Below are positions 19,705-28,922 of a stretch of 34,689 bases of DNA, piece by piece (the stretch's first letter is position 1; each line of letters starts with the position of its first letter). Source of the stretch: Armatimonadota bacterium. GTDB taxonomy: Bacteria; Armatimonadota; Zipacnadia; Zipacnadales; UBA5352. The notes below the pieces were generated by a model. That model did not search any database. It saw only the letters and a program-made list of their open reading frames with translations, and was not told where the DNA came from. The DNA lies in NCBI GenBank assembly GCA_034722055.1, contig JAYENL010000150.1:1-34689 (forward strand). Reading direction: 5' to 3'. The position numbers and the translations under genes were made by a program.

Positions 19705-20016
19705 TCAGTCCAGGTGATCCTCGATGAAGCCTATTAACTGGTCGGGGCTCTGGGAGCCGACCACTCGTCCACGCTCCTGACCGGCCTGAAAGAGGATGAA
19801 GGTTGGCACCCCCAGGATGTGATACCGGGCTCGCAATCGAGGATTGCGATTGACGTTGACCTGAAAGACCTCCAGATCAAAGCCACTGTCTTCCAGCTTC
19901 CTCAGCGTCGGCTCCATCTGCTTGCAGGGGATGCACCATGAGCCCCAGAAGTCGACCAGCACTGGCTTGTCTGCCTGAAGCACCTCTTGATCGAAGTTTC
20001 TGGCGGATATCTCCAT
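19705..20016 (-). CDS. Thioredoxin
   Basis: NFDQEVLQADKPVLVDFWGSWCIPCK and cis-Pro loop GVPTF; alternative GTG start at 20061 overlapping the upstream stop. Confidence 0.92.
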   Translation of the reverse strand: MEISARNFDQEVLQADKPVLVDFWGSWCIPCKQMEPTLRKLEDSGFDLEVFQVNVNRNPRLRARYHILGVPTFILFQAGQERGRVVGSQSPDQLIGFIEDHLD

Positions 20017-20057
20017 TGGTATGTGCCCTCGTGTGTTCAGCGGTTTGGGGACGATGC

Positions 20058-21617
20058 TCACTGCGCCGAGAGGCGCATCGTCGGTTGGGCTTCGCCAGTG
20101 ACCAGCCTTCCTTGATACCCCTCTTGCTCCCTGGTACCCGGCTCATAGACCTCCAGCACCTCGGAGTCGCGCTTCTCTCCTGACCAGCGGGTCTTTGGCA
20201 TGACGGTGTGCTTCTTCATTTCGATTCGAGACTGAATCTCGGGCCGGGTGAGGAGCTTGAGCATCTCCGTGACCTCCTCTTCCAGTGTGATCTTTGGCCG
20301 GAAGCCGAAGGCGTTGGGCAGCTTCTGAGAGACGACCTCAAGGGGGTGCTGCTCGGCCTCCACGCGAGGGTTCTCGAGGCGCTGGATTTCCACGTTGAGG
20401 CCGAAGTCCTTTCCGACTTCGGCGACCACTTCGGCCAGGTCAGCGATCTTGTGCAGCCCGGAGACCTGGTTGACAACATCGTATTGCCCCGGCTCGGGCG
20501 GCGACACCAGGAGCCGCGTCATGCACTCCATCGCATCGGCGAGGGCGATGAAGCCCCGGATCTGCTCACCCTTGCCATAGATCGTGAGCGGGATGCCCAG
20601 GACGGCCTGCGCGACGAACCGGTTGATGACAGTGCCGAACCACTCGTCGATGTCGAGGCGAGTGCGAAGCCGGTAGTCCTTGCACACCTCCGGGGTGTGC
20701 ACCCCGTAGATGATCCCCTGCATGATGTCATAGGAGCGAAGCCACCAGTACTTGCAGGCCTCGTAAATATTGAAGGTGTCTTGGACCTTGGAGCAGTGAT
20801 AGAAGCTGACCGGATCGCGGGGGGTGATCTCGCCGCCCATACTCCACTCACGTTCATCCCATTGTAGCACTGCGTCGCTGGAAAACATCCCCTCAAAGAG
20901 GGGCCGCCCGGTCAGCGGTGCGCCGTACTCCCCCATGGTGCCAAGCTTGATAAGAGCGCTCTCTGGAACGACATCCTTCATCACCCACAACAGGCCCAGC
21001 GTGCCCAGAGTGTTGTTGTTTTGCGTCTCGATGGCGTGCTCGGCATCAACCATTGAGTAGGGAGCGCTGGGGATTTCGGCGTAGTGGACGATCGCCTCGG
21101 GGCGGACCTCTTGCATGAACTCATTGAGCTTGTCCATGTCCCGAATGTCCATCCGTCGGAAGTTGATGGTCAGCCCCAGGACTTCCTGAGCCGCTTCCAG
21201 GCGCTGGGTCATTCGAGCAATCGGCACGACGGTGTGGGCGCCCTTCTCCATGACACAATCGCGCCGGGTATAGTTGTCAATCCCGCTGACCTGACAGCCG
21301 AGCCGCGCCAGCTTCAGCGCCAGCGTCCAGCCCAAGTAGCCGTCGATCCCCAGGATCATCACTCTCATGTTCTTGAGCATGTACCCGTAATCGGTCGGCT
21401 CCCATTCCGGGCATTGCTCGAAGGTGATAGAGGGGTCGAAGGTGCCCAGTTCCGGGCGCCGGCGGCACTCTATGAGTATCTGGCCGTCGTGCTCCTCCTC
21501 GGGTCTCTCCCGCGACTGGCCACAGGCGGTGAAATCAATGCTCCCGACGATGTCGGCTGCCGGGCAGTTCCAGCACGTCTTGTTGGCATTATGCAGGTGC
21601 TTGCCGTGGCCGCTCAT
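20058..21617 (-). CDS. sqdB: UDP-sulfoquinovose synthase (SqdB/SQD1/Agl3)-like extended SDR with an additional Cys-rich N-terminal domain
   Basis: GIDGYLGW NAD motif, SAPYSM, KLGTMGEYG, YHCSK, QGIIYG, FGTVINRF, PLTIYGKGEQIRGF, NPRVE; AGGAG RBS before the ATG at 21617. Confidence 0.82.
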   Translation of the reverse strand: MSGHGKHLHNANKTCWNCPAADIVGSIDFTACGQSRERPEEEHDGQILIECRRRPELGTFDPSITFEQCPEWEPTDYGYMLKNMRVMILGIDGYLGWTLALKLARLGCQVSGIDNYTRRDCVMEKGAHTVVPIARMTQRLEAAQEVLGLTINFRRMDIRDMDKLNEFMQEVRPEAIVHYAEIPSAPYSMVDAEHAIETQNNNTLGTLGLLWVMKDVVPESALIKLGTMGEYGAPLTGRPLFEGMFSSDAVLQWDEREWSMGGEITPRDPVSFYHCSKVQDTFNIYEACKYWWLRSYDIMQGIIYGVHTPEVCKDYRLRTRLDIDEWFGTVINRFVAQAVLGIPLTIYGKGEQIRGFIALADAMECMTRLLVSPPEPGQYDVVNQVSGLHKIADLAEVVAEVGKDFGLNVEIQRLENPRVEAEQHPLEVVSQKLPNAFGFRPKITLEEEVTEMLKLLTRPEIQSRIEMKKHTVMPKTRWSGEKRDSEVLEVYEPGTREQEGYQGRLVTGEAQPTMRLSAQ

Positions 21618-21630
21618 TGCTCATCTCCTG

Positions 21631-22887
21631 TCAATCCCTGATGATCGAGACGACATCCTCAACGGTCGGAGTCTCGGGCACGATCTCGTCGGCTCGGGGA
21701 TCTCTGACCATTAGGAACGCCTGGTCATTGTGCATCCCCGGCAGTCTGCTCGGCTGATGGAGATCAGCAGTCAGTCGTCCGACCAGCCTGAATGAGGGAT
21801 TGGGTACAGCCACAAGGTGGGGCGCCTTGTGCAGATTATCTCCGTAGTAGATCTCCTCGCGGCGGTGGACCTGCCTGATCGCCTTCCCGCCGTTGACCTG
21901 CAACTGCGCGAGGAACTCGGTCAAGCGGTCAAGGAGCGCCTCCTGTTGGCTTGCCTCAACCGAGCCCTTGGGGAAGCGCTCTCTCTCGTTCACGTAGACA
22001 CGGCCGTTCTCCAGAGCAAACGCGGCTGACCCTTCCTGGATGCGGTTATACTTCCTGGCCTCCCCCTGGTCGAGCTTCAAGAAGCCTCCGTCCATCAGGC
22101 AGGCGTTCAAGTTCACCTCGTGGACCGAGCCTTCCATGCCATGATCGGAGAGGACCAGAAGCCTATCCTCCGGGTTCAGCCGTTCCGCAATGCGCTCGAT
22201 GGTCTGATCGACCCGCCGGAAGTACTCCAGGAACTTGTCGTGGCTCGGGTGATCCTGATCTTGCCAATGATGCCAGCCGAAGTGGCCGATGCGGTCGCTA
22301 CCGGTGACTACCAACATGAAGACCGCAGGGTGATATTCCTCCCAGAGGTAGTCCGCCAACTCCTCTCGTTTCGCATGTGTTTCGTAGAGCTGCTTATACA
22401 GCACCAGCTCCGACTGCTTGGCCTTCTCGACGTCCAGATCAACTCTGTAGCCCAGAGTCTCCAGGGTCTCCAGCTCGCTGCTGGGATAGACTGCCTTTTC
22501 CAGGCGTGGTGAGACGAAACCCGAGATATGGCAGCCTTGCAGTGGTTGCGCTGGATAGGTGGAGGGGACATTGATGATAACGCAGTTACCTGTCTCGTGG
22601 TGCCAGAAGGGCGGCCGCTTCAGGTCCAGGAAGTTGGGGTAGCGGATGCTATAGGTGCCCGGCACCATGTCGGAGAAGCCATAGATACCATGCTCACCAG
22701 GATTGCGTCCGGTAACGATTGAGCTCCAGGACACCGAGGAGACTGCCGGGACGGACGAACGCATCGGCCGGAATACCCCGTCCCTCGCCAGCGAGCGCAG
22801 AAACGGGATCACTCCTTGATCGGCAAGCTCCTCCATCAGGGAGAAAGGAGCTCCATCAATTCCGATGATGACCTTACGCTTGCTCAT
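21631..22887 (-). CDS. Alkaline phosphatase superfamily protein (type I phosphodiesterase/nucleotide pyrophosphatase family)
   Basis: IIGIDGA, SSVPAVSSVSWSSIVTGRNPGEHGIYGF, NVPSTYP, DRIGH, LSDHGM, GMH; no signal peptide. Confidence 0.88.
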   Translation of the reverse strand: MSKRKVIIGIDGAPFSLMEELADQGVIPFLRSLARDGVFRPMRSSVPAVSSVSWSSIVTGRNPGEHGIYGFSDMVPGTYSIRYPNFLDLKRPPFWHHETGNCVIINVPSTYPAQPLQGCHISGFVSPRLEKAVYPSSELETLETLGYRVDLDVEKAKQSELVLYKQLYETHAKREELADYLWEEYHPAVFMLVVTGSDRIGHFGWHHWQDQDHPSHDKFLEYFRRVDQTIERIAERLNPEDRLLVLSDHGMEGSVHEVNLNACLMDGGFLKLDQGEARKYNRIQEGSAAFALENGRVYVNERERFPKGSVEASQQEALLDRLTEFLAQLQVNGGKAIRQVHRREEIYYGDNLHKAPHLVAVPNPSFRLVGRLTADLHQPSRLPGMHNDQAFLMVRDPRADEIVPETPTVEDVVSIIRD

Positions 22888-23418: not shown

Positions 23419-23783
23419 GACCGTCAGCATGCGGGGCAGCGTTGGGCCCTCCCGCCGGCACTACTGGTGCTCAATCCAACGACCAGCTCCGACATACGCT
23501 GCGACGAGTATTCGCCATGTGCCACGCCTGTCCTTCCCTGCGACGTGTGCCTGTGAAGAGAAACGCTAGCGCTGGTAGGAGCCGATCACGTTCACAGGCG
23601 CGTCGGGCCCGCCCCGAGTGACCAGCACCGGCGGTCTCACTCACGCCTCCGTGAGGGTGAGCCTCAGGCGCGGTCGCTGGACGCGGCCCGGATGCGGCAG
23701 GGGCAGGAGGTCGGCACCTATCGACCGCAGAAGACTGTGACGCGCAGGGATTCGTGGAGTGGAGTCTGGGATGGAGAGGCATC

Positions 23784-26700
23784 ATGGCTGCCACGCGCCG
23801 ACGCTGTCGCCCCTGTCACGCCGCGCACCTTGCGATCGCCATCTCGCTGGCGGCCCTCTGCAGTGCCGCCGCGCTCGCCGACGACTGGCCCACGGTTCGC
23901 CACGATAACGCCCGCAGCGGCTGGACAACGGAGACGGTTGAGCCGCCGCTGCGGCTCCGCTGGGCCTTCCGGCAGAAGTACCCTCCGCAGCAGGCCTGGA
24001 GCGGGCCACGCGATGAGGCGGTCGAGGGCAACTGGGAGAAGGACCGCATCGCCTTCGATGTCGTGAACCACGTGGCCGTCGCGGATGGCTCGGTCTTCAT
24101 GGGGTCCTCAGGCGACGGCACGGTCTACTGCCTCGACGCAGAGACAGGCCGCATCCGGTGGTCCTTCATCACCGGCGGGCCGGTGCGACTGGCGCCTGCG
24201 GTCGCCAACGGCCGGGTCTACTTCGGCTCCGATGATGGCCACGCCTACTGTGTCAGCGCCGATGACGGCAGCCTCGTGTGGCGGCTGCAGGCCGGCCCGG
24301 AGGATGACCGGCTGATCGGCAACGGGTGGATGGTGTCGCGGTGGCCGGTCCGAAGCGGGGTGCTGGTCGATGATGGCACCGCCTACTTCGGCGCAGGCGT
24401 CTTCCCGCACGAGGGCGTCTACGTCTGGGCCGCGGATGCCGATGACGGCCGGCTGATCTGGCGCAATGACACCACGTCAACGGCGGCGGAGCGGGGGCTA
24501 TTGGGCGGCCCGGGCAGCAACGAGCTGTCTCCGCACGGCTACCTGCTGGCGTCGCAGAGCCGCCTGTTCGTCGCCTCCGGCCGCGCCCTGCCCGCCGCCT
24601 TCGACCGCGAGGATGGTCGGAAGCTCTATCAGTCCCATGACAGTTGGCGAAGCAGCGGCATCGTTGGCGGCACCTTCGCCGTGCTGGCGGATGATCACAT
24701 TCTGGTCGGCGCCAACCAGGCGGTGGGCTACGACCAGGAGTCGGGCAGGGGCGGCTTCGCCTGGTTCCCCTGCCGGCGGCTTGTGGTCGCCGATGAGCTG
24801 GCGTACATGACCACCGACGCGGTACCGACCGAGACCAGCGGGTCCCCGCTGACCGAGGAGGTCACCTGCGTCAGCTTCGAGCCATACGCGGAGGCCACGC
24901 GCGAAAGGAAAACCACTCAGCGGCAGATCACATCCCTGGAGAGGCAGCACTCCGACACGCAGGGCCGGCTTCGCGCCGAGAGGGCCAAGCCTGAGGGCGA
25001 GCAGGACGCGGAGCGCATCGCGGAGCTTGCCGAGCAGGTTGAGGAGACCGAGGCGAAGCTGGAGGCTGCGAGGGAGCGCCTGGAGGAGATCGAGGGCCGG
25101 ACTCTGCAGGCGCAGGTCAGGTGGCGGACGCCCACGAGCTGCGCCTCCAGCCTGATCCTCGCCGGGGACGTGCTCTACGCAGGTGGGGAGGGGCTGGTGG
25201 TGGGCTATGATGCCGGTAGCGGCGATGAGGTGTGGCGCGCTGAGGTGGATGGCGACGCGCGGGGGCTGGCTGCGGCCGACGGCGCGCTCTACGTCAGCAC
25301 CGACGCGGGCCTGCTGTACTGCTTCGCGCCCGGCGACGGCGAGCCCGGCCCTATGCTCGAGCAGACTGCCGACGGGGGAGTCTACGGCGAGGACGAGCCG
25401 ATGTCCGCGGTCTACCGGGCGGCGGCGGAGGCCATCGTCAGCTCTTCGGGCGTGCGCCGCGGCTTCTGCCTGGTCCTGGGCGTTGAGACCGGCCGGCTGG
25501 CGTACGAGCTTGCGCGCCGGACCGATCTGAAGATCTACTGCCTGGAGGCGGATGCGGAGAGGGTGCAGACCGCGCGGGCGGCGCTGAGTGCCGCCGGGGT
25601 CCACGGCGGCCGCGTCTTCGTCGATCAGGGCGACACCAGCGACATCCCCTACCCGGACTACTTCGCGAATCTCATCGTCTCCGAGAGCGCCCTTCATGGC
25701 AGGGCGCTCCCGGAGGTCACTGAGGAGATCATCCGCACTCTCAAGCCGTGCGGCGGCGTCGTCTGCGTGGGGCGGCCGGAGAACGCGCCCGCGGCCCTCA
25801 CCGCCGAGAGGCTGACCGGGTGGCTGCGCTCGTTCAACTGTGGGGAGCCGAGCGTCAGCCGGGATGCCGGGTTGTGGGGGACCATCGTGCGCGGGGCGCT
25901 CCCCGGAGCGGGAAGCTGGACCCACCAGTACGCCGAGCCGGGCAACACCGCCGGCGGCGACGATGACATCAGGTGCCCGCTGGGCCTGCTGTGGTACGGC
26001 GATCCGGGCCCGGACAAGATGCTCAGCCGACACGCCCGGAGCGTGGCGCCGCTGACAGTGGACGGACGGCTGCTGATGCAGGGCAATAACGTGGTGATGT
26101 GCTACGACGCCTACAACGGCGTGCGCTACTGGGAGCGGCAGATCGAGGGCGCAGTGCGCTCCGGCATGACCCACCGGGCGAGCAACACCTGCTGCAACTC
26201 CAGACACATGTTCGTGGCCGTGGGCCCGCAGTGCCTGCGGCTGGACGTGAGCACTGGCGAGACCACGGCCACCTTCGAGCAGCCCGACGCTGCTGCGGAC
26301 GAGCCCCCCGCGTGGGGCTGGATCGCCACCGTCGGCGACCTCCTCTACGGGAGCACCAGCCTGGACGGGCAGTTCAGCGCGGGCGTCTTCGCGCTCGACG
26401 CCGAGAGCGGCGACCCGCGCTGGGTGTACGAGGGCACCCGGATCAAGGACAATACCATCGCCATCGGCGACGGCCGGATGTTCTTCGCCGACAGCGTCGA
26501 GCTTACCGACCAGCAGCGCCGGGAGGCGGTTGCGGAGAGCGGCGGCGATCCCGACAGCGCCGACGTGCGAATGGTGGTGTGTCTGGACGCGGCCACCGGC
26601 GACACGCTGTGGGAGCGGCCGGTTGACCTCACCGACTGCGGCGGCGCCAGCAACGTGCTCATGGCCATGTACCGCGACGGCGTCGTGGTGTTCAGCGCGG

Positions 26701-28922
26701 CCCACTGGAACGGCCACTACTGGGGACAGTTCCTGGGGGGCGACTACGGCGAGCGCCGCGCGGTGGCCCTCGCCGCCCAGGACGGCGAGCTGCTGTGGCA
26801 CAAGCGGATCGGGTATCGCATCCGACCGCTGATCGTGGGCGAGCAGTTCGTGGCGGAGCCCTGGGCCTTCGATCTGCATACCGGAGAGCAGCGAATGCGC
26901 GCGCACCCGATCACCGGGGAGCAGGTCCCCTGGCAGTTCGAGCGCCCCGGCCATCACTGCGGCTGCATCTCGGGGGCCGACAACCTGCTGCTGTTCCGAT
27001 CCAGCTTCATGGGCTACTACGACCTGGTGGAGGACTACGGCACCTGCCACTTCGGCGCCCTCCGCCCCGGCTGCTGGATCAACGCCATCCCGGCCAGCGG
27101 GCTGGTGGTCATGCCCGAGGCCAGCTCCGGCTGCCAGTGCCTCTACGCCATCCAGTGCACCGTGGTCTTCCAGCCGGTGGATAAGCCGCGGACCTGGGGC
27201 CTCTTCAGCACCCCCGGCCCGCACAGGCCCGTGACGCATCTGGCAGTGAACCTGGGCGCGCCCGGCGACCGCCGGGCCGCCGACGGTAAGCTGTGGCTCT
27301 CCTACCCCCGGCCGTGGTCGCGCATGCAGACTCAGTTCGAGCTGAAGCCGACCCTGCATGAGGGTGGCGGATACGTCTCGGACGATCCCCGGCTGGCGGC
27401 GATCGAGGGAGCCGCCACGCCCTGGCTCCACACGTCCGGCCTCCGGGGTCTGAGGCGGCTGGAGGTGCCTCTGGTCCAGCGAGGCGATGCTCCCGCGGCG
27501 TACAGGGTGCGCCTGCACCTCTTGGCACCGCCGGAGGGCGAGGGTCAGCCGCCGGTGGATATCAGGCTGCAGGGCGAGACTGTGGCCGAGGGCCTGGACG
27601 TGCGCCAGGCGGCCGGCGGGCCGAGCCGGCCGCTGGTGCGCGAGTTCGACCCGGTGCCGGTGCGCGGCGAGCTGCAGATCGAATTCGCTCCGCGGGTCGA
27701 GGAGCCGGCCGCCGACAGCGTTCCGCTGCTCAGCGCGGTAGAGCTGGAGCGCGTGTCGCTGCCGGGCATGGACGCCCAGGTGCAGACGCTCCGGAGACCG
27801 TTGGCGCGCCACAACCTCGGCTACTGGCTGGCCGAGGTGCTGCGTCAGGCGGCCGACGCCGACATGGCGCTGATCCCCTGCGACAGCGTGTGGCTGGAGG
27901 GCGATCGCGTGGAGGCCGGCACGCTGACGCTGGGCGAGCTGCTGGCCCACGTGACCGACGCCCGCCTGGTGCGCCATCGCGTCACGGGCGCTGAGCTGCT
28001 GGAGTACCTGAGCAATCCCCGTGTTGCGGACCGGCTGAATCCGCTGAGCCATGGCCGGGCGTCGCAGGAGCTCAACTCGCTGTATCATGCCGGGCTTGAG
28101 GTGACCTACGATGCCGACCGTCGGTCAGTGCGGCTCGACCTCGACCCCGGGCGGCAGTACGCGCTGGTGAGCGTCTGCCCCTTCGCCGGTCTGGGCGGGC
28201 GGGCGCAGGCCCTCGACGCGGAGGCGGCAGCGGAACATTCGGCCATCCCGGGCCTGCGGTCCGAGGCGGCCGAGGTGCTCGAACTGACAACCTGGAGCGT
28301 CCTGGAGAGCCTGGGCGCGGAGGGCTTGAGCCTCACACGACGCTACCCTGAGGCGCTCGCCATCTGGGAGACGTGGCTGGAGCATGCGGAGGAGCAGATG
28401 GGCTACCACCTGACCGAGTGGCCCGAGGACCTGCCCGCGGTCACCATCGAGGCCGCCGCTGACGCCAGCGTCCGACACGCACAGCCGAATGGCACCATGG
28501 GCTCGGGCGCCACTGTGACGGTAGACGGTGGCGACAGGGAGCTGGGGGACGGCTCGCACACGCTGATCTACCTGCGCTTCCCGCTGGATGTGCCGGGCCG
28601 GCCCGTCATGGCGAAGCTGCGTCTGCGGACGCATGACGGTGGACACTCCAACAGCGCGGAGGCCGGCGACGTTCGAGTGGTGGAGGAGCCCTGGGAGGAG
28701 ACAACGGTGACCTACAAGGCCCGGCCGAGTCCCGGCGAGAAGGTGGGGGCGCTGGGGGCCGTGGAGCTCGGCCAGGTCAGCGAGCACCTGCTGAAGGTCG
28801 ATCTGCGGGCCCGCGACGAGCTGTCGCTTGGGATCGTGCCGACATCCTGCGATGCGGCAGTGTTCCTGGCGCGCGAGAGCGGCGACGGGCCGGAGCTGAT
28901 CGTGGCCTACCAGCCGCAGTGA
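23784..28922 (+). CDS. Giant secreted multi-domain protein: two PQQ-type (BamB-like) beta-propellers, degenerate methyltransferase-like domain, malectin-like domain, 5'-nucleotidase-C-like domain and DNRLRE-like domain
   Basis: Signal peptide then DWPTVRHDNARSG; repeated LDAxxG...W Trp-docking motifs; GFCLVLGVETGRLAYELA; WTHQYAEPGNT; HHCGC/RPGCW/SGCQC; C-terminal ADASV...YLRF...AKLRL...WEETTVTY. Confidence 0.85.
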   Translation: MAATRRRCRPCHAAHLAIAISLAALCSAAALADDWPTVRHDNARSGWTTETVEPPLRLRWAFRQKYPPQQAWSGPRDEAVEGNWEKDRIAFDVVNHVAVADGSVFMGSSGDGTVYCLDAETGRIRWSFITGGPVRLAPAVANGRVYFGSDDGHAYCVSADDGSLVWRLQAGPEDDRLIGNGWMVSRWPVRSGVLVDDGTAYFGAGVFPHEGVYVWAADADDGRLIWRNDTTSTAAERGLLGGPGSNELSPHGYLLASQSRLFVASGRALPAAFDREDGRKLYQSHDSWRSSGIVGGTFAVLADDHILVGANQAVGYDQESGRGGFAWFPCRRLVVADELAYMTTDAVPTETSGSPLTEEVTCVSFEPYAEATRERKTTQRQITSLERQHSDTQGRLRAERAKPEGEQDAERIAELAEQVEETEAKLEAARERLEEIEGRTLQAQVRWRTPTSCASSLILAGDVLYAGGEGLVVGYDAGSGDEVWRAEVDGDARGLAAADGALYVSTDAGLLYCFAPGDGEPGPMLEQTADGGVYGEDEPMSAVYRAAAEAIVSSSGVRRGFCLVLGVETGRLAYELARRTDLKIYCLEADAERVQTARAALSAAGVHGGRVFVDQGDTSDIPYPDYFANLIVSESALHGRALPEVTEEIIRTLKPCGGVVCVGRPENAPAALTAERLTGWLRSFNCGEPSVSRDAGLWGTIVRGALPGAGSWTHQYAEPGNTAGGDDDIRCPLGLLWYGDPGPDKMLSRHARSVAPLTVDGRLLMQGNNVVMCYDAYNGVRYWERQIEGAVRSGMTHRASNTCCNSRHMFVAVGPQCLRLDVSTGETTATFEQPDAAADEPPAWGWIATVGDLLYGSTSLDGQFSAGVFALDAESGDPRWVYEGTRIKDNTIAIGDGRMFFADSVELTDQQRREAVAESGGDPDSADVRMVVCLDAATGDTLWERPVDLTDCGGASNVLMAMYRDGVVVFSAAHWNGHYWGQFLGGDYGERRAVALAAQDGELLWHKRIGYRIRPLIVGEQFVAEPWAFDLHTGEQRMRAHPITGEQVPWQFERPGHHCGCISGADNLLLFRSSFMGYYDLVEDYGTCHFGALRPGCWINAIPASGLVVMPEASSGCQCLYAIQCTVVFQPVDKPRTWGLFSTPGPHRPVTHLAVNLGAPGDRRAADGKLWLSYPRPWSRMQTQFELKPTLHEGGGYVSDDPRLAAIEGAATPWLHTSGLRGLRRLEVPLVQRGDAPAAYRVRLHLLAPPEGEGQPPVDIRLQGETVAEGLDVRQAAGGPSRPLVREFDPVPVRGELQIEFAPRVEEPAADSVPLLSAVELERVSLPGMDAQVQTLRRPLARHNLGYWLAEVLRQAADADMALIPCDSVWLEGDRVEAGTLTLGELLAHVTDARLVRHRVTGAELLEYLSNPRVADRLNPLSHGRASQELNSLYHAGLEVTYDADRRSVRLDLDPGRQYALVSVCPFAGLGGRAQALDAEAAAEHSAIPGLRSEAAEVLELTTWSVLESLGAEGLSLTRRYPEALAIWETWLEHAEEQMGYHLTEWPEDLPAVTIEAAADASVRHAQPNGTMGSGATVTVDGGDRELGDGSHTLIYLRFPLDVPGRPVMAKLRLRTHDGGHSNSAEAGDVRVVEEPWEETTVTYKARPSPGEKVGALGAVELGQVSEHLLKVDLRARDELSLGIVPTSCDAAVFLARESGDGPELIVAYQPQ

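What the first reader, a model, noticed from the sequence alone, without database searches (positions are those of the whole stretch)
21369..21617. Extra ~83-aa His/Cys-rich N-terminal domain on the SqdB homologue
Seen: before the Rossmann fold (MRVMILGIDGYLG) the ORF carries MSGHGKHLH...CWNC-x13-C-x18-C-x17-C, in frame and with a good RBS at the upstream ATG. Known: characterised bacterial and archaeal SqdB/Agl3 begin essentially at the Rossmann strand. Inference: this is a Zn/Fe-S binding or thiol-switch domain, possibly the target of the adjacent thioredoxin or a sulfite (S-sulfonate) carrier.
Basis: partly seen in the sequence, partly recalled or inferred. Interest (0 to 1): 0.7.

Follow-up and report, generated by a model that had tools for sequence, protein, structure and literature searches.

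The report
Five-cysteine domain on sulfoquinovose synthase
A sulfo-sugar-making enzyme carries a small, undescribed cysteine domain that looks like an iron-sulfur module and is predicted to plug one cysteine into the active site of the neighbouring phosphodiesterase-like enzyme, which suggests a new way to make sulfite from activated sulfate.

Summary
Confirmed: window 21369-21617 (-) encodes an 83-aa head on a SqdB/SQD1 homologue. Five cysteines (C15, C18, C32, C51, C69) are invariant in 121 of 121 sequences; the histidines are not. No Pfam, PHROGs, NCBIfam or PDB-sequence match. The fusion sits between an alkaline-phosphatase-superfamily (AP) gene and a thioredoxin in 21/21 and 20/20 genome loci, versus 0 of 8 SqdB loci lacking the domain. 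This scan already reported the cassette in other genomes (33 windows).

Three results were not in the earlier notes I was shown. (1) The domain also occurs as a stand-alone protein directly behind the AP gene (12 of 13 loci), without SqdB. (2) Its model matches only 3 of 48,161 chains, all HiPIP-type [4Fe-4S] proteins (weak, Z 2.1-2.6). (3) A complex prediction (0.76, best control 0.02) puts Cys32 in the AP metal site.

Best reading (about 0.45): AP moves the sulfo group of APS onto Cys32, thioredoxin releases sulfite, SqdB uses it. This would be a CysH-like reductase built from unrelated folds. CysH passes its cut-off in only 2 of 30 cassette genomes. Nothing is shown biochemically. AP enzymes usually attack phosphorus, and SQD1 Arg101 is missing.

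The parts
21631..22887 (-). Alkaline-phosphatase-superfamily protein (PF01663), 418 aa; two-metal site D11, S50 (nucleophile position), D198, H202, D248, H249, H386; predicted partner of the domain
   Evidence: Pfam E 3e-40; these seven residues kept in cassette APs; complex prediction
21625..21629 (-). Shine-Dalgarno-like AGGAG, 7 nt before the fusion's ATG, just after the AP stop codon
21369..21617 (-). 83-aa N-terminal five-cysteine domain, HiPIP-like; proposed cluster ligands C15 (21573-21575), C18 (21564-21566), C51 (21465-21467), C69 (21411-21413)
   Evidence: assignment of ligands is inferred from the HiPIP pattern
21522..21524 (-). Cys32, the fifth cysteine, in an invariant DFxxCGQ loop; predicted to enter the AP metal site
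   Evidence: invariant in 121/121; contacts with H202, D198, R199, T195, S50 in the predicted complex
20058..21368 (-). SqdB/SQD1/Agl3-like catalytic body (Met84 onward): GxxGxxG, T227, Y273, K277 kept; SQD1/Agl3 Arg101 replaced by Pro183; clade-specific conserved insert at about 232-269
   Evidence: SQD1 E 6e-78; NF041015 427.6 bits, below the 575 cut-off
19705..20016 (-). Thioredoxin with WGSWCIPC active site; likely start is the ATG at 20016
   Evidence: PF00085 E 7e-25; CxxC intact in 21 of 21 aligned; a 1-base insertion at 20024 in two runs lies upstream of this ATG

Best explanation
The 83-aa head is an independent HiPIP-like domain. It probably binds one [4Fe-4S] cluster through C15, C18, C51 and C69 and presents a fifth cysteine, Cys32, on a loop.

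Proposed cycle: (1) ATP sulfurylase (Sat or CysDN) makes APS. (2) The upstream AP-superfamily metalloenzyme binds APS and passes its sulfo group, directly or via Ser50, to Cys32 held at the metal site, giving Cys-S-SO3- and AMP. (3) The cassette thioredoxin releases sulfite. [quoted passage not shown]

Shown here: the domain, its conservation, the gene linkage, the stand-alone AP+domain unit, and the scarcity of CysH/AprA. Predicted: the fold and the docking of Cys32. Inferred only: the cluster, the substrate, sulfo transfer, the thioredoxin step and the product.
For: Linkage: AP directly upstream in 21/21 and Trx directly downstream in 20/20 genome loci with DNA there. The same in 51/55 and 41/42 fused metagenome loci under a strict distance rule and in 8/8 and 7/7 Asgard loci. 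None in 8 domain-less SqdB loci.

Stand-alone domain: directly behind an AP gene in 12 of 13 loci with upstream DNA.

Fold: all 3 hits with Z>=2 among 48,161 chains are HiPIP-type [4Fe-4S] proteins (PMC12358834 passages). I had noted the HiPIP-like Cys pattern beforehand.

Complex: score 0.76, best of 3 controls 0.02. This mark was reached by 116 of 157 solved complexes and 2 of 215 mismatched pairs. Runs agree in at least 62% of contacts and partner pLDDT is at least 72. Cys32 touches H202, D198, R199, T195 and S50.

Sulfur genes: an ATP sulfurylase is recognisable in 19 of 22 cassette genomes (Sat 13, CysD 6). None of the 6 CysD genomes has a strong APS kinase hit, which favours APS over PAPS. 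CysH passes its cut-off in 2 of 30 genomes and AprA in 0 of 30. The own genome has Sat, CysC and thioredoxin reductase but no PF01507, AprA or sulfite reductase.

Precedents: the Cys-S-SO3-/thioredoxin mechanism of CysH (PMC1175818, abstract) and AP-superfamily sulfotransferases Agl30/31 (PMC11980604, passages).
Against: No biochemical or expression data.

The Z-scores (2.1-2.6) are far below the level the tool trusts. Foldseek found nothing and Pfam's HiPIP model does not hit.

Zinc was supplied in the complex job, so Cys32 may be drawn to it as a learned Cys-Zn contact. The calibration held no ligands and used other alignments. The output does not say which Cys hold the cluster.

NPP-type enzymes normally cleave APS at phosphorus, giving sulfate rather than sulfite (recalled).

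Arg101, needed for Agl3 activity (PMC4388408, passages), is Pro here, and the body scores below the NF041015 cut-off.

Absence of CysH is weak evidence: these are incomplete MAGs, 8 of the 22 carry a PUA-type PF01507 protein of unclear function, and the own genome has rhodanese proteins. Sat is common anyway (50 of 61 genomes in the own order; 132 of 301 Asgard). Two cassette genomes have CysH and one has a partial AprA.

Most stand-alone loci have no sulfur genes or thioredoxin nearby, and one (L114) has no AP.
Confidence: 0.45

Rival explanations
1. Cysteine switch. Cys32 binds the AP metal and blocks or tunes an ordinary hydrolase or transferase (nucleotide-sugar pyrophosphatase, glycan sulfo- or phosphotransferase). 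Thioredoxin controls the switch, and sulfite for SqdB comes from elsewhere.
For: The predicted contact of Cys32 with H202 and D198 fits metal ligation as well as catalysis. The AP+domain pair exists without SqdB or Trx. AP paralogues occur in glycan loci and sat-cysC operons with no such domain.
Against: It does not explain the strict three-gene linkage to a sulfite-using enzyme, the CysD/CysN or Sat genes beside several cassettes, or CysD genomes with no strong APS kinase and no CysH.
Confidence: 0.2
2. The same relay, but the sulfur source is not APS. Cys32 takes sulfur from thiosulfate or a persulfide, sulfite is released to SqdB, and thioredoxin clears the persulfide; or the cluster helps oxidise reduced sulfur.
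For: The hosts are largely uncultured sediment and brine organisms. Two of 22 genomes show no ATP sulfurylase. It avoids attack on the sulfur of APS by an NPP-type site.
Against: ATP sulfurylase genes lie within a few kb of the cassette in L008, L011, L012, L021, L022 and L023. It gives no use for a nucleotide-binding NPP-type enzyme. The two genomes without ATP sulfurylase are small MAGs (1.6 and 0.6 Mb).
Confidence: 0.12
3. The product is not UDP-sulfoquinovose. The SqdB-like body adds another sulfur nucleophile (thiol or persulfide from Cys32) to the 5,6-ene, giving a 6-thio or other sugar; or the domain is only a structural metal module that holds AP and SqdB together.
For: Arg101 of SQD1/Agl3 is Pro183. 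The score is below the NF041015 cut-off. The clade has a long branch and an invariant insert near the active site.
Against: All other residues tested in Agl3 are kept (H178, T227, M228, E230, Y231, Y273, K277). The Arg-to-Pro change also occurs in 5 of 7 aligned domain-less homologues. A purely structural module would not need an invariant fifth Cys at the partner's catalytic centre.
Confidence: 0.18

Closest known systems
UDP-sulfoquinovose synthase: SQD1 (Arabidopsis, PDB 1i24/1qrr), bacterial SqdB, Sulfolobus Agl3
   Same: SDR fold, GxxGxxG, Thr/Tyr/Lys triad; best PDB hit E 6e-78 over residues 84-479.
   Different: Extra N-terminal five-Cys domain, Arg101 replaced by Pro, clade-specific insert, fixed AP and Trx neighbours; below the NCBIfam cut-off. 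The in vivo sulfite transfer of the known enzymes is called unknown in PMC4388408 (passages).
HiPIP (1ISU) and the HiPIP-fold small subunits of glycyl radical enzymes (HPAD gamma, MASS gamma)
   Same: CxxC...C...CxxW pattern; the only three structural hits (Z 2.6, 2.6, 2.1; rmsd 2.3-2.8 over 41-42 residues).
   Different: No sequence-profile match, a long insertion with a fifth invariant Cys, fused to a cytoplasmic enzyme or paired with an AP protein; cluster not demonstrated.
CysH-type APS/PAPS reductase (PF01507)
   Same: Proposed logic: sulfonucleotide, one acceptor cysteine, [4Fe-4S] cluster, thioredoxin, sulfite (PMC1175818, abstract and section titles).
   Different: No PF01507 match in any cassette protein; the functions would be split between an AP-superfamily enzyme and a HiPIP-like domain; activity untested.
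Nucleotide pyrophosphatase/phosphodiesterase (NPP) and haloarchaeal AP-superfamily sulfotransferases Agl30/Agl31
   Same: The partner has the two-metal AP core; nearest solved relatives are ENPP1, bacterial NPP and phosphonoacetate hydrolase (E 2e-6 or weaker).
   Different: Ser nucleophile position, no close solved relative; Agl30/31 resemble sulfatases and modify sugars, not a protein thiol (PMC11980604, passages).

Membership tests
UDP-sulfoquinovose synthase (SQD1/SqdB/Agl3) | SDR Rossmann fold with GxxGxxG and Thr/Tyr/Lys triad | tested here: met
   G90-G93-G96, T227, Y273, K277 invariant or nearly so in 108 sequences; aligned to SQD1
UDP-sulfoquinovose synthase (SQD1/SqdB/Agl3) | Arg101, essential in Agl3 | tested here: not met
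   Pro183 here; also Pro in 5 of 7 aligned domain-less homologues; PMC4388408 passages
UDP-sulfoquinovose synthase (SQD1/SqdB/Agl3) | NCBIfam NF041015 cut-off (575 bits) | tested here: not met
   427.6 bits; only 1 of the 2 control genomes that match passes the cut-off
UDP-sulfoquinovose synthase (SQD1/SqdB/Agl3) | Makes UDP-SQ from UDP-glucose and sulfite | not testable with these tools
   needs an enzyme assay
HiPIP-fold [4Fe-4S] proteins | Four Cys in a CxxC...C...CxxW arrangement | tested here: met
   C15, C18, C51, C69 and W72 invariant in 121/121; the HiPIP pattern itself is recalled
HiPIP-fold [4Fe-4S] proteins | Structural similarity to HiPIP | tested here: inconclusive
   3 of 3 hits are HiPIP-type but Z is only 2.1-2.6; Foldseek found none
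HiPIP-fold [4Fe-4S] proteins | Match to the Pfam HiPIP profile | tested here: not met
   no HiPIP family among matches at E<=5 for 25 members or E<=1 for 18 stand-alone members
HiPIP-fold [4Fe-4S] proteins | Binds a [4Fe-4S] cluster | not testable with these tools
   needs anaerobic purification, Fe/S analysis and EPR
CysH-type APS/PAPS reductase | PF01507 domain | tested here: not met
   none of the three cassette proteins matches; no match in the own genome
CysH-type APS/PAPS reductase | Cys-S-SO3- intermediate released by thioredoxin | not testable with these tools
   only the position of Cys32 is predicted
Alkaline phosphatase superfamily, PF01663 (partner) | Two-metal ligand set and Ser/Thr nucleophile | tested here: met
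   D11, S50, D198, H202, D248, H249, H386 invariant in 66 of 66; the mapping to the AP metal sites is recalled
Thioredoxin (partner) | Trx fold with WCxxC | tested here: met
   PF00085; W[GA]SWCxxC in 21 of 21, not the canonical WCGPC

The most novel reading that the evidence does not exclude
The AP protein and the HiPIP-like five-Cys domain together form a third, non-homologous class of APS reductase. It is thioredoxin-dependent like CysH but built from an alkaline-phosphatase-fold sulfo-transfer enzyme and a swinging cysteine on an iron-sulfur domain. Fused to SqdB it channels sulfite into sulfoquinovose; as a stand-alone pair it supplies other sulfonate pathways (one locus has the domain directly before comDE).
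Probability: 0.4. Interest if true: 0.88.

Novelty: new variant of a known kind. Interest (0 to 1): 0.76.

Why it matters
How sulfite reaches UDP-sulfoquinovose synthase in vivo is stated to be unknown (PMC4388408). Many archaea and small-genome bacteria have ATP sulfurylase but no recognised APS reductase. This cassette gives a compact, three-protein answer that can be expressed and tested, with named residues (Cys32, Ser50, the Trx CxxC). If right, it adds an unrelated enzyme class for the first reductive step of sulfate use and a new chemistry for the AP superfamily. It would also mean that sulfoquinovose synthesis is spread among Asgard, DPANN, Thermoplasmata, Hadarchaeota, Patescibacteria and Armatimonadota. 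What is shown is a new domain and cassette on a known enzyme, hence the class given; the reductase reading would be categorically new.

Tried and rejected
Internal start at Met80/84: rejected. Assembly artefact: rejected. His-rich metal site: rejected.

Known family for the domain: nothing significant in Pfam, NCBIfam, PHROGs or PDB sequences (best E 0.26). Foldseek against PDB and viral models gave no match at E<=0.001 (70, 72), and VIA on Foldseek's 51 hits gave none. ESM Atlas gave only unnamed clusters at 0.90-0.92 (16, 104). No viral locus was returned (60).

My first reading that no stand-alone form exists came: 13 short hits that looked like fragments of the fusion. It was overturned.

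Direction of evolution: quick trees nest the APs beside stand-alone domains inside the cassette APs (71 and 33 rows, long-branch rows dropped and rows thinned in 100). The AU test does not reject the alternative (p 0.319), so loss versus later fusion is open.

The PLP enzyme after the stand-alone domain in L114 could not be assigned to cysteate synthase. Sat in the own genome is uninformative as support (50 of 61 in the order). No Xsc over cut-off in the own genome. No RNA holder listed. The promoter/terminator scan was at chance level. I could not verify the 1ISU cysteine numbering in the literature (0 papers). Binding of thioredoxin to the domain was not modelled.

Full report
Observation. 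The minus-strand ORF 20058..21617 encodes 519 aa. Residues 84-479 align with Arabidopsis SQD1 at E 6e-78 and score 427.6 bits on NF041015, below its cut-off of 575. Residues 1-83 match no family in Pfam, NCBIfam or PHROGs and no PDB sequence. A search with residues 1-83 among proteins of 285-909 aa gave 145 hits of 151 candidates; all 120 listed carry the epimerase domain. In these 120 plus the query, C15, C18, C32, C51 and C69 are invariant, with N10, W16, P19, D28, F29, G33, Q34, R54, P62, W72 and L81. His4, His7 and His43 are not conserved and His9 is in 93 of 121. The hits were chosen by similarity to this region, which inflates conservation, but the distant stand-alone relatives below keep the same cysteines. 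The upstream ATG has AGGAG at 7 nt and the internal methionines have none. The domain is under purifying selection (dN/dS 0.20 and 0.21; body 0.11 and 0.13). Contigs from 3 of 4 runs of one brine study span the junction without indels.

Host and spread. The nearest relatives are Armatimonadota MAGs (86% in the domain; SH-aLRT 100 for a five-row clade). Of 22 genome loci, 18 are archaeal, 3 Armatimonadota and 1 Saccharibacteria. In the window's phylum only 5 of 401 genomes have a SqdB-like gene at E<=1e-40, and 2 of these have the domain. The cassette genes are 57-62% G+C against 68% for the genome. Both points suggest horizontal acquisition (inference). In an Asgard sample the domain is in 8 of 301 genomes.

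Gene context. An AP-superfamily gene (PF01663) lies directly upstream in 21 of 21 genome loci with upstream DNA, and a thioredoxin directly downstream in 20 of 20. In 63 fused metagenome loci the counts under a strict distance rule are 51 of 55 and 41 of 42. The four AP misses still have an AP gene in the locus (longer gap in two, two genes upstream in one, downstream on the other strand in one), and the Trx miss is a frameshifted SqdB with Trx present. The 8 Asgard loci give 8 of 8 and 7 of 7. As a control, 0 of 8 SqdB loci without the domain have either neighbour within 1.5 kb, although several are cut by contig ends. The AP protein keeps a full two-metal site with Ser50 in 66 of 66 sequences, and the thioredoxin keeps W[GA]SWCxxC in 21 of 21. 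Neighbouring genes are often glycosyltransferases, flippases and sulfotransferases, and in L008, L011, L012, L021, L022 and L023 Sat, CysD-like or CysD/CysN genes.

Stand-alone form. A profile search of 1.84 billion representatives gave 46 hits, among them short proteins that end soon after the last cysteine. In 18 such sequences four cysteines are invariant and the first is missing only in one truncated row. A metagenome scan kept the best 80 of 85 loci: 63 fused, 16 stand-alone and 1 open at a contig end; 79 of 80 show the five-Cys pattern. Of 13 stand-alone loci with upstream DNA, 12 have the AP gene directly upstream, and none of the 16 has a SqdB or Trx hit. These 12 are not independent; the five placed in the tree form one clade. 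Most face a threonine biosynthesis operon. L131 (1.2 kb, no upstream DNA) has the domain directly before sulfopyruvate decarboxylase comD and comE. L114 has no AP. The domain therefore travels with the AP protein more faithfully than with SqdB. Whether SqdB was lost or gained later is unresolved (AU p 0.319).

Fold. The domain alone was modelled at mean pLDDT 83.5. In the full-length model the Cys32 region (21-50) is poorly placed, at pLDDT 48-62. Against 48,161 representative chains only three reach Z>=2: 1isu_B (HiPIP), 2y8n_B and 9o8u_F, with Z 2.6, 2.6 and 2.1. PMC12358834 (passages read) states that MASS gamma and HPAD gamma adopt a fold like HiPIP 1ISU and bind [4Fe-4S]; PMC13450708 (passages) agrees. 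Identifying 2y8n_B as HPAD gamma and 9o8u_F as MASS gamma is my inference from titles and lengths. Such Z values are weak alone, but three of three hits share one fold that I had guessed from the cysteine pattern before the search. The aligned ranges fit C15, C18 and C69 on the HiPIP ligands if the recalled 1ISU numbering is right (not verified). This leaves Cys32 as the extra cysteine.

Complex. AP (66-row alignment) with two Zn, one 4Fe-4S cluster and the domain (residues 8-83) scored 0.76, with a best control of 0.02 out of 3. The mark was reached by 116 of 157 solved complexes and 2 of 215 mismatched pairs. Runs agree in at least 62% of contacts and partner pLDDT is at least 72. The counts hold only roughly, because my alignments and ligands differ from the calibration. 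No like complex is known to me from the PDB searches. The interface uses domain residues 24-40 and 57-65, which hold most of the invariant non-ligand residues. Cys32 touches H202, D198, R199, T195 and S50. By the AP superfamily mechanism (recalled), D198 and H202 bind the metal that activates the acceptor nucleophile. Interface residues of AP are more conserved than the rest (0.68 vs 0.58, permutation p 0.009). APs with a domain partner keep 10-11 of 13 conserved interface residues, against 2-7 in eight paralogues without one; closeness to the active site and general divergence confound this. Since zinc was supplied, the Cys-metal contact could be a learned habit of the model.

Sulfur metabolism. 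The own genome (92.7% complete) has sat, cysC and, right behind them, a paralogue of the AP gene, plus thioredoxin reductase. It has no PF01507 protein, no AprA over cut-off and no sulfite reductase. Of 22 cassette genomes, 13 have Sat and 6 others CysD over cut-off; one more has a CysD-like gene adjoining the cassette and two have neither. None of the 6 CysD genomes has a strong APS kinase hit (4 none, 2 weak). Two of these six, G019 and G020 (loci L021, L022), are unpublished genomes, so the CysD-without-CysC argument and two of the adjacent CysD/CysN cases partly rest on them. Over 30 cassette genomes, CysH passes its cut-off in 2 and AprA in 0, with one partial AprA. Two of 3 relatives with domain-less SqdB have CysH.

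Mechanism. CysH forms an enzyme Cys-S-SO3- from APS and thioredoxin releases sulfite (PMC1175818, abstract and outline). The cassette has the same parts in other folds: a nucleotide-handling metalloenzyme, an acceptor cysteine at its metal site, a probable [4Fe-4S] cluster, a thioredoxin, and a fused sulfite consumer. AP-superfamily proteins acting as sulfotransferases have genetic support (PMC11980604, passages; the passages I saw name no donor). The main chemical objection is that NPP enzymes usually attack phosphorus (recalled). The main objection to the product is the loss of Arg101 (PMC4388408, passages), which many domain-less homologues share. I put the APS relay at 0.45, a regulatory cysteine switch at 0.2, another product or a structural role at 0.18, and a non-APS sulfur source at 0.12. 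For the parts: domain binds AP about 0.8, cluster is [4Fe-4S] about 0.6.

Novelty. Searches of the paper library for this domain or cassette (listings only) showed no description. PMC13436972 (passages) does not mention thioredoxin. Subscription papers are not covered, and I read no supplements, which might list the cassette. This scan has noted the cassette before: 33 windows, 8 notes shown, which propose a sulfite-supply role. Look-ups for the HiPIP link and for the stand-alone protein returned no matching note. Verdict: real, conserved and apparently unpublished; a testable candidate for a new APS reductase; interest 0.76.

Noticed in passing
L015:7989-10604, L016, L018 (also P0050, P0103 with PF14528): An intein-like insert of about 310-345 aa interrupts the SqdB body. 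In L015 it sits immediately before the catalytic threonine of the KLGTMGEY motif.
   Followed up: partly
G000:C314:64789-67898 (L181) and G566 (L183:4427-7556): PF01663 paralogues sit inside sat-cysC operons, which ties this AP subfamily to APS/PAPS. In L008 a DHH protein takes that place.
   Followed up: partly
G000:C194 (L180:2878-14970): A polysaccharide export locus (Wza/Wzc-like, GT4) holds four tandem PF01663 paralogues, possibly glycan sulfo- or phosphotransferases.
   Followed up: no
L131:1-1236: A stand-alone five-Cys gene overlaps comD, followed by comE (sulfopyruvate decarboxylase), on a low-G+C contig: a possible link to coenzyme M or other sulfonate synthesis.
   Followed up: partly
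L114:2622-7747: A stand-alone domain without AP lies between a ThiF/MoeB-type adenylyltransferase and an unclassified PLP enzyme, near SepCysS.
   Followed up: partly
L044:158-2208 (G018): Cysteate synthase lies directly before a CysH-type reductase in a Thermoplasmatales MAG that also has the cassette.
   Followed up: no
window residues 229-269 of the ORF (about 20811-20933): A clade-specific, highly conserved insert near the SqdB active site is poorly modelled (pLDDT 36-53); it may contact a partner.
   Followed up: no
window 23754-28922 (+): A 1722-aa protein combines PQQ-type beta-propellers, a methyltransferase-like domain, a 5'-nucleotidase C-terminal domain and CBM96.
   Followed up: no
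L009:9517, L013:8911, L015:10612, L017:9574, L008, L014, L024: Several cassette thioredoxins have WCTAC instead of WCxPC.
   Followed up: no
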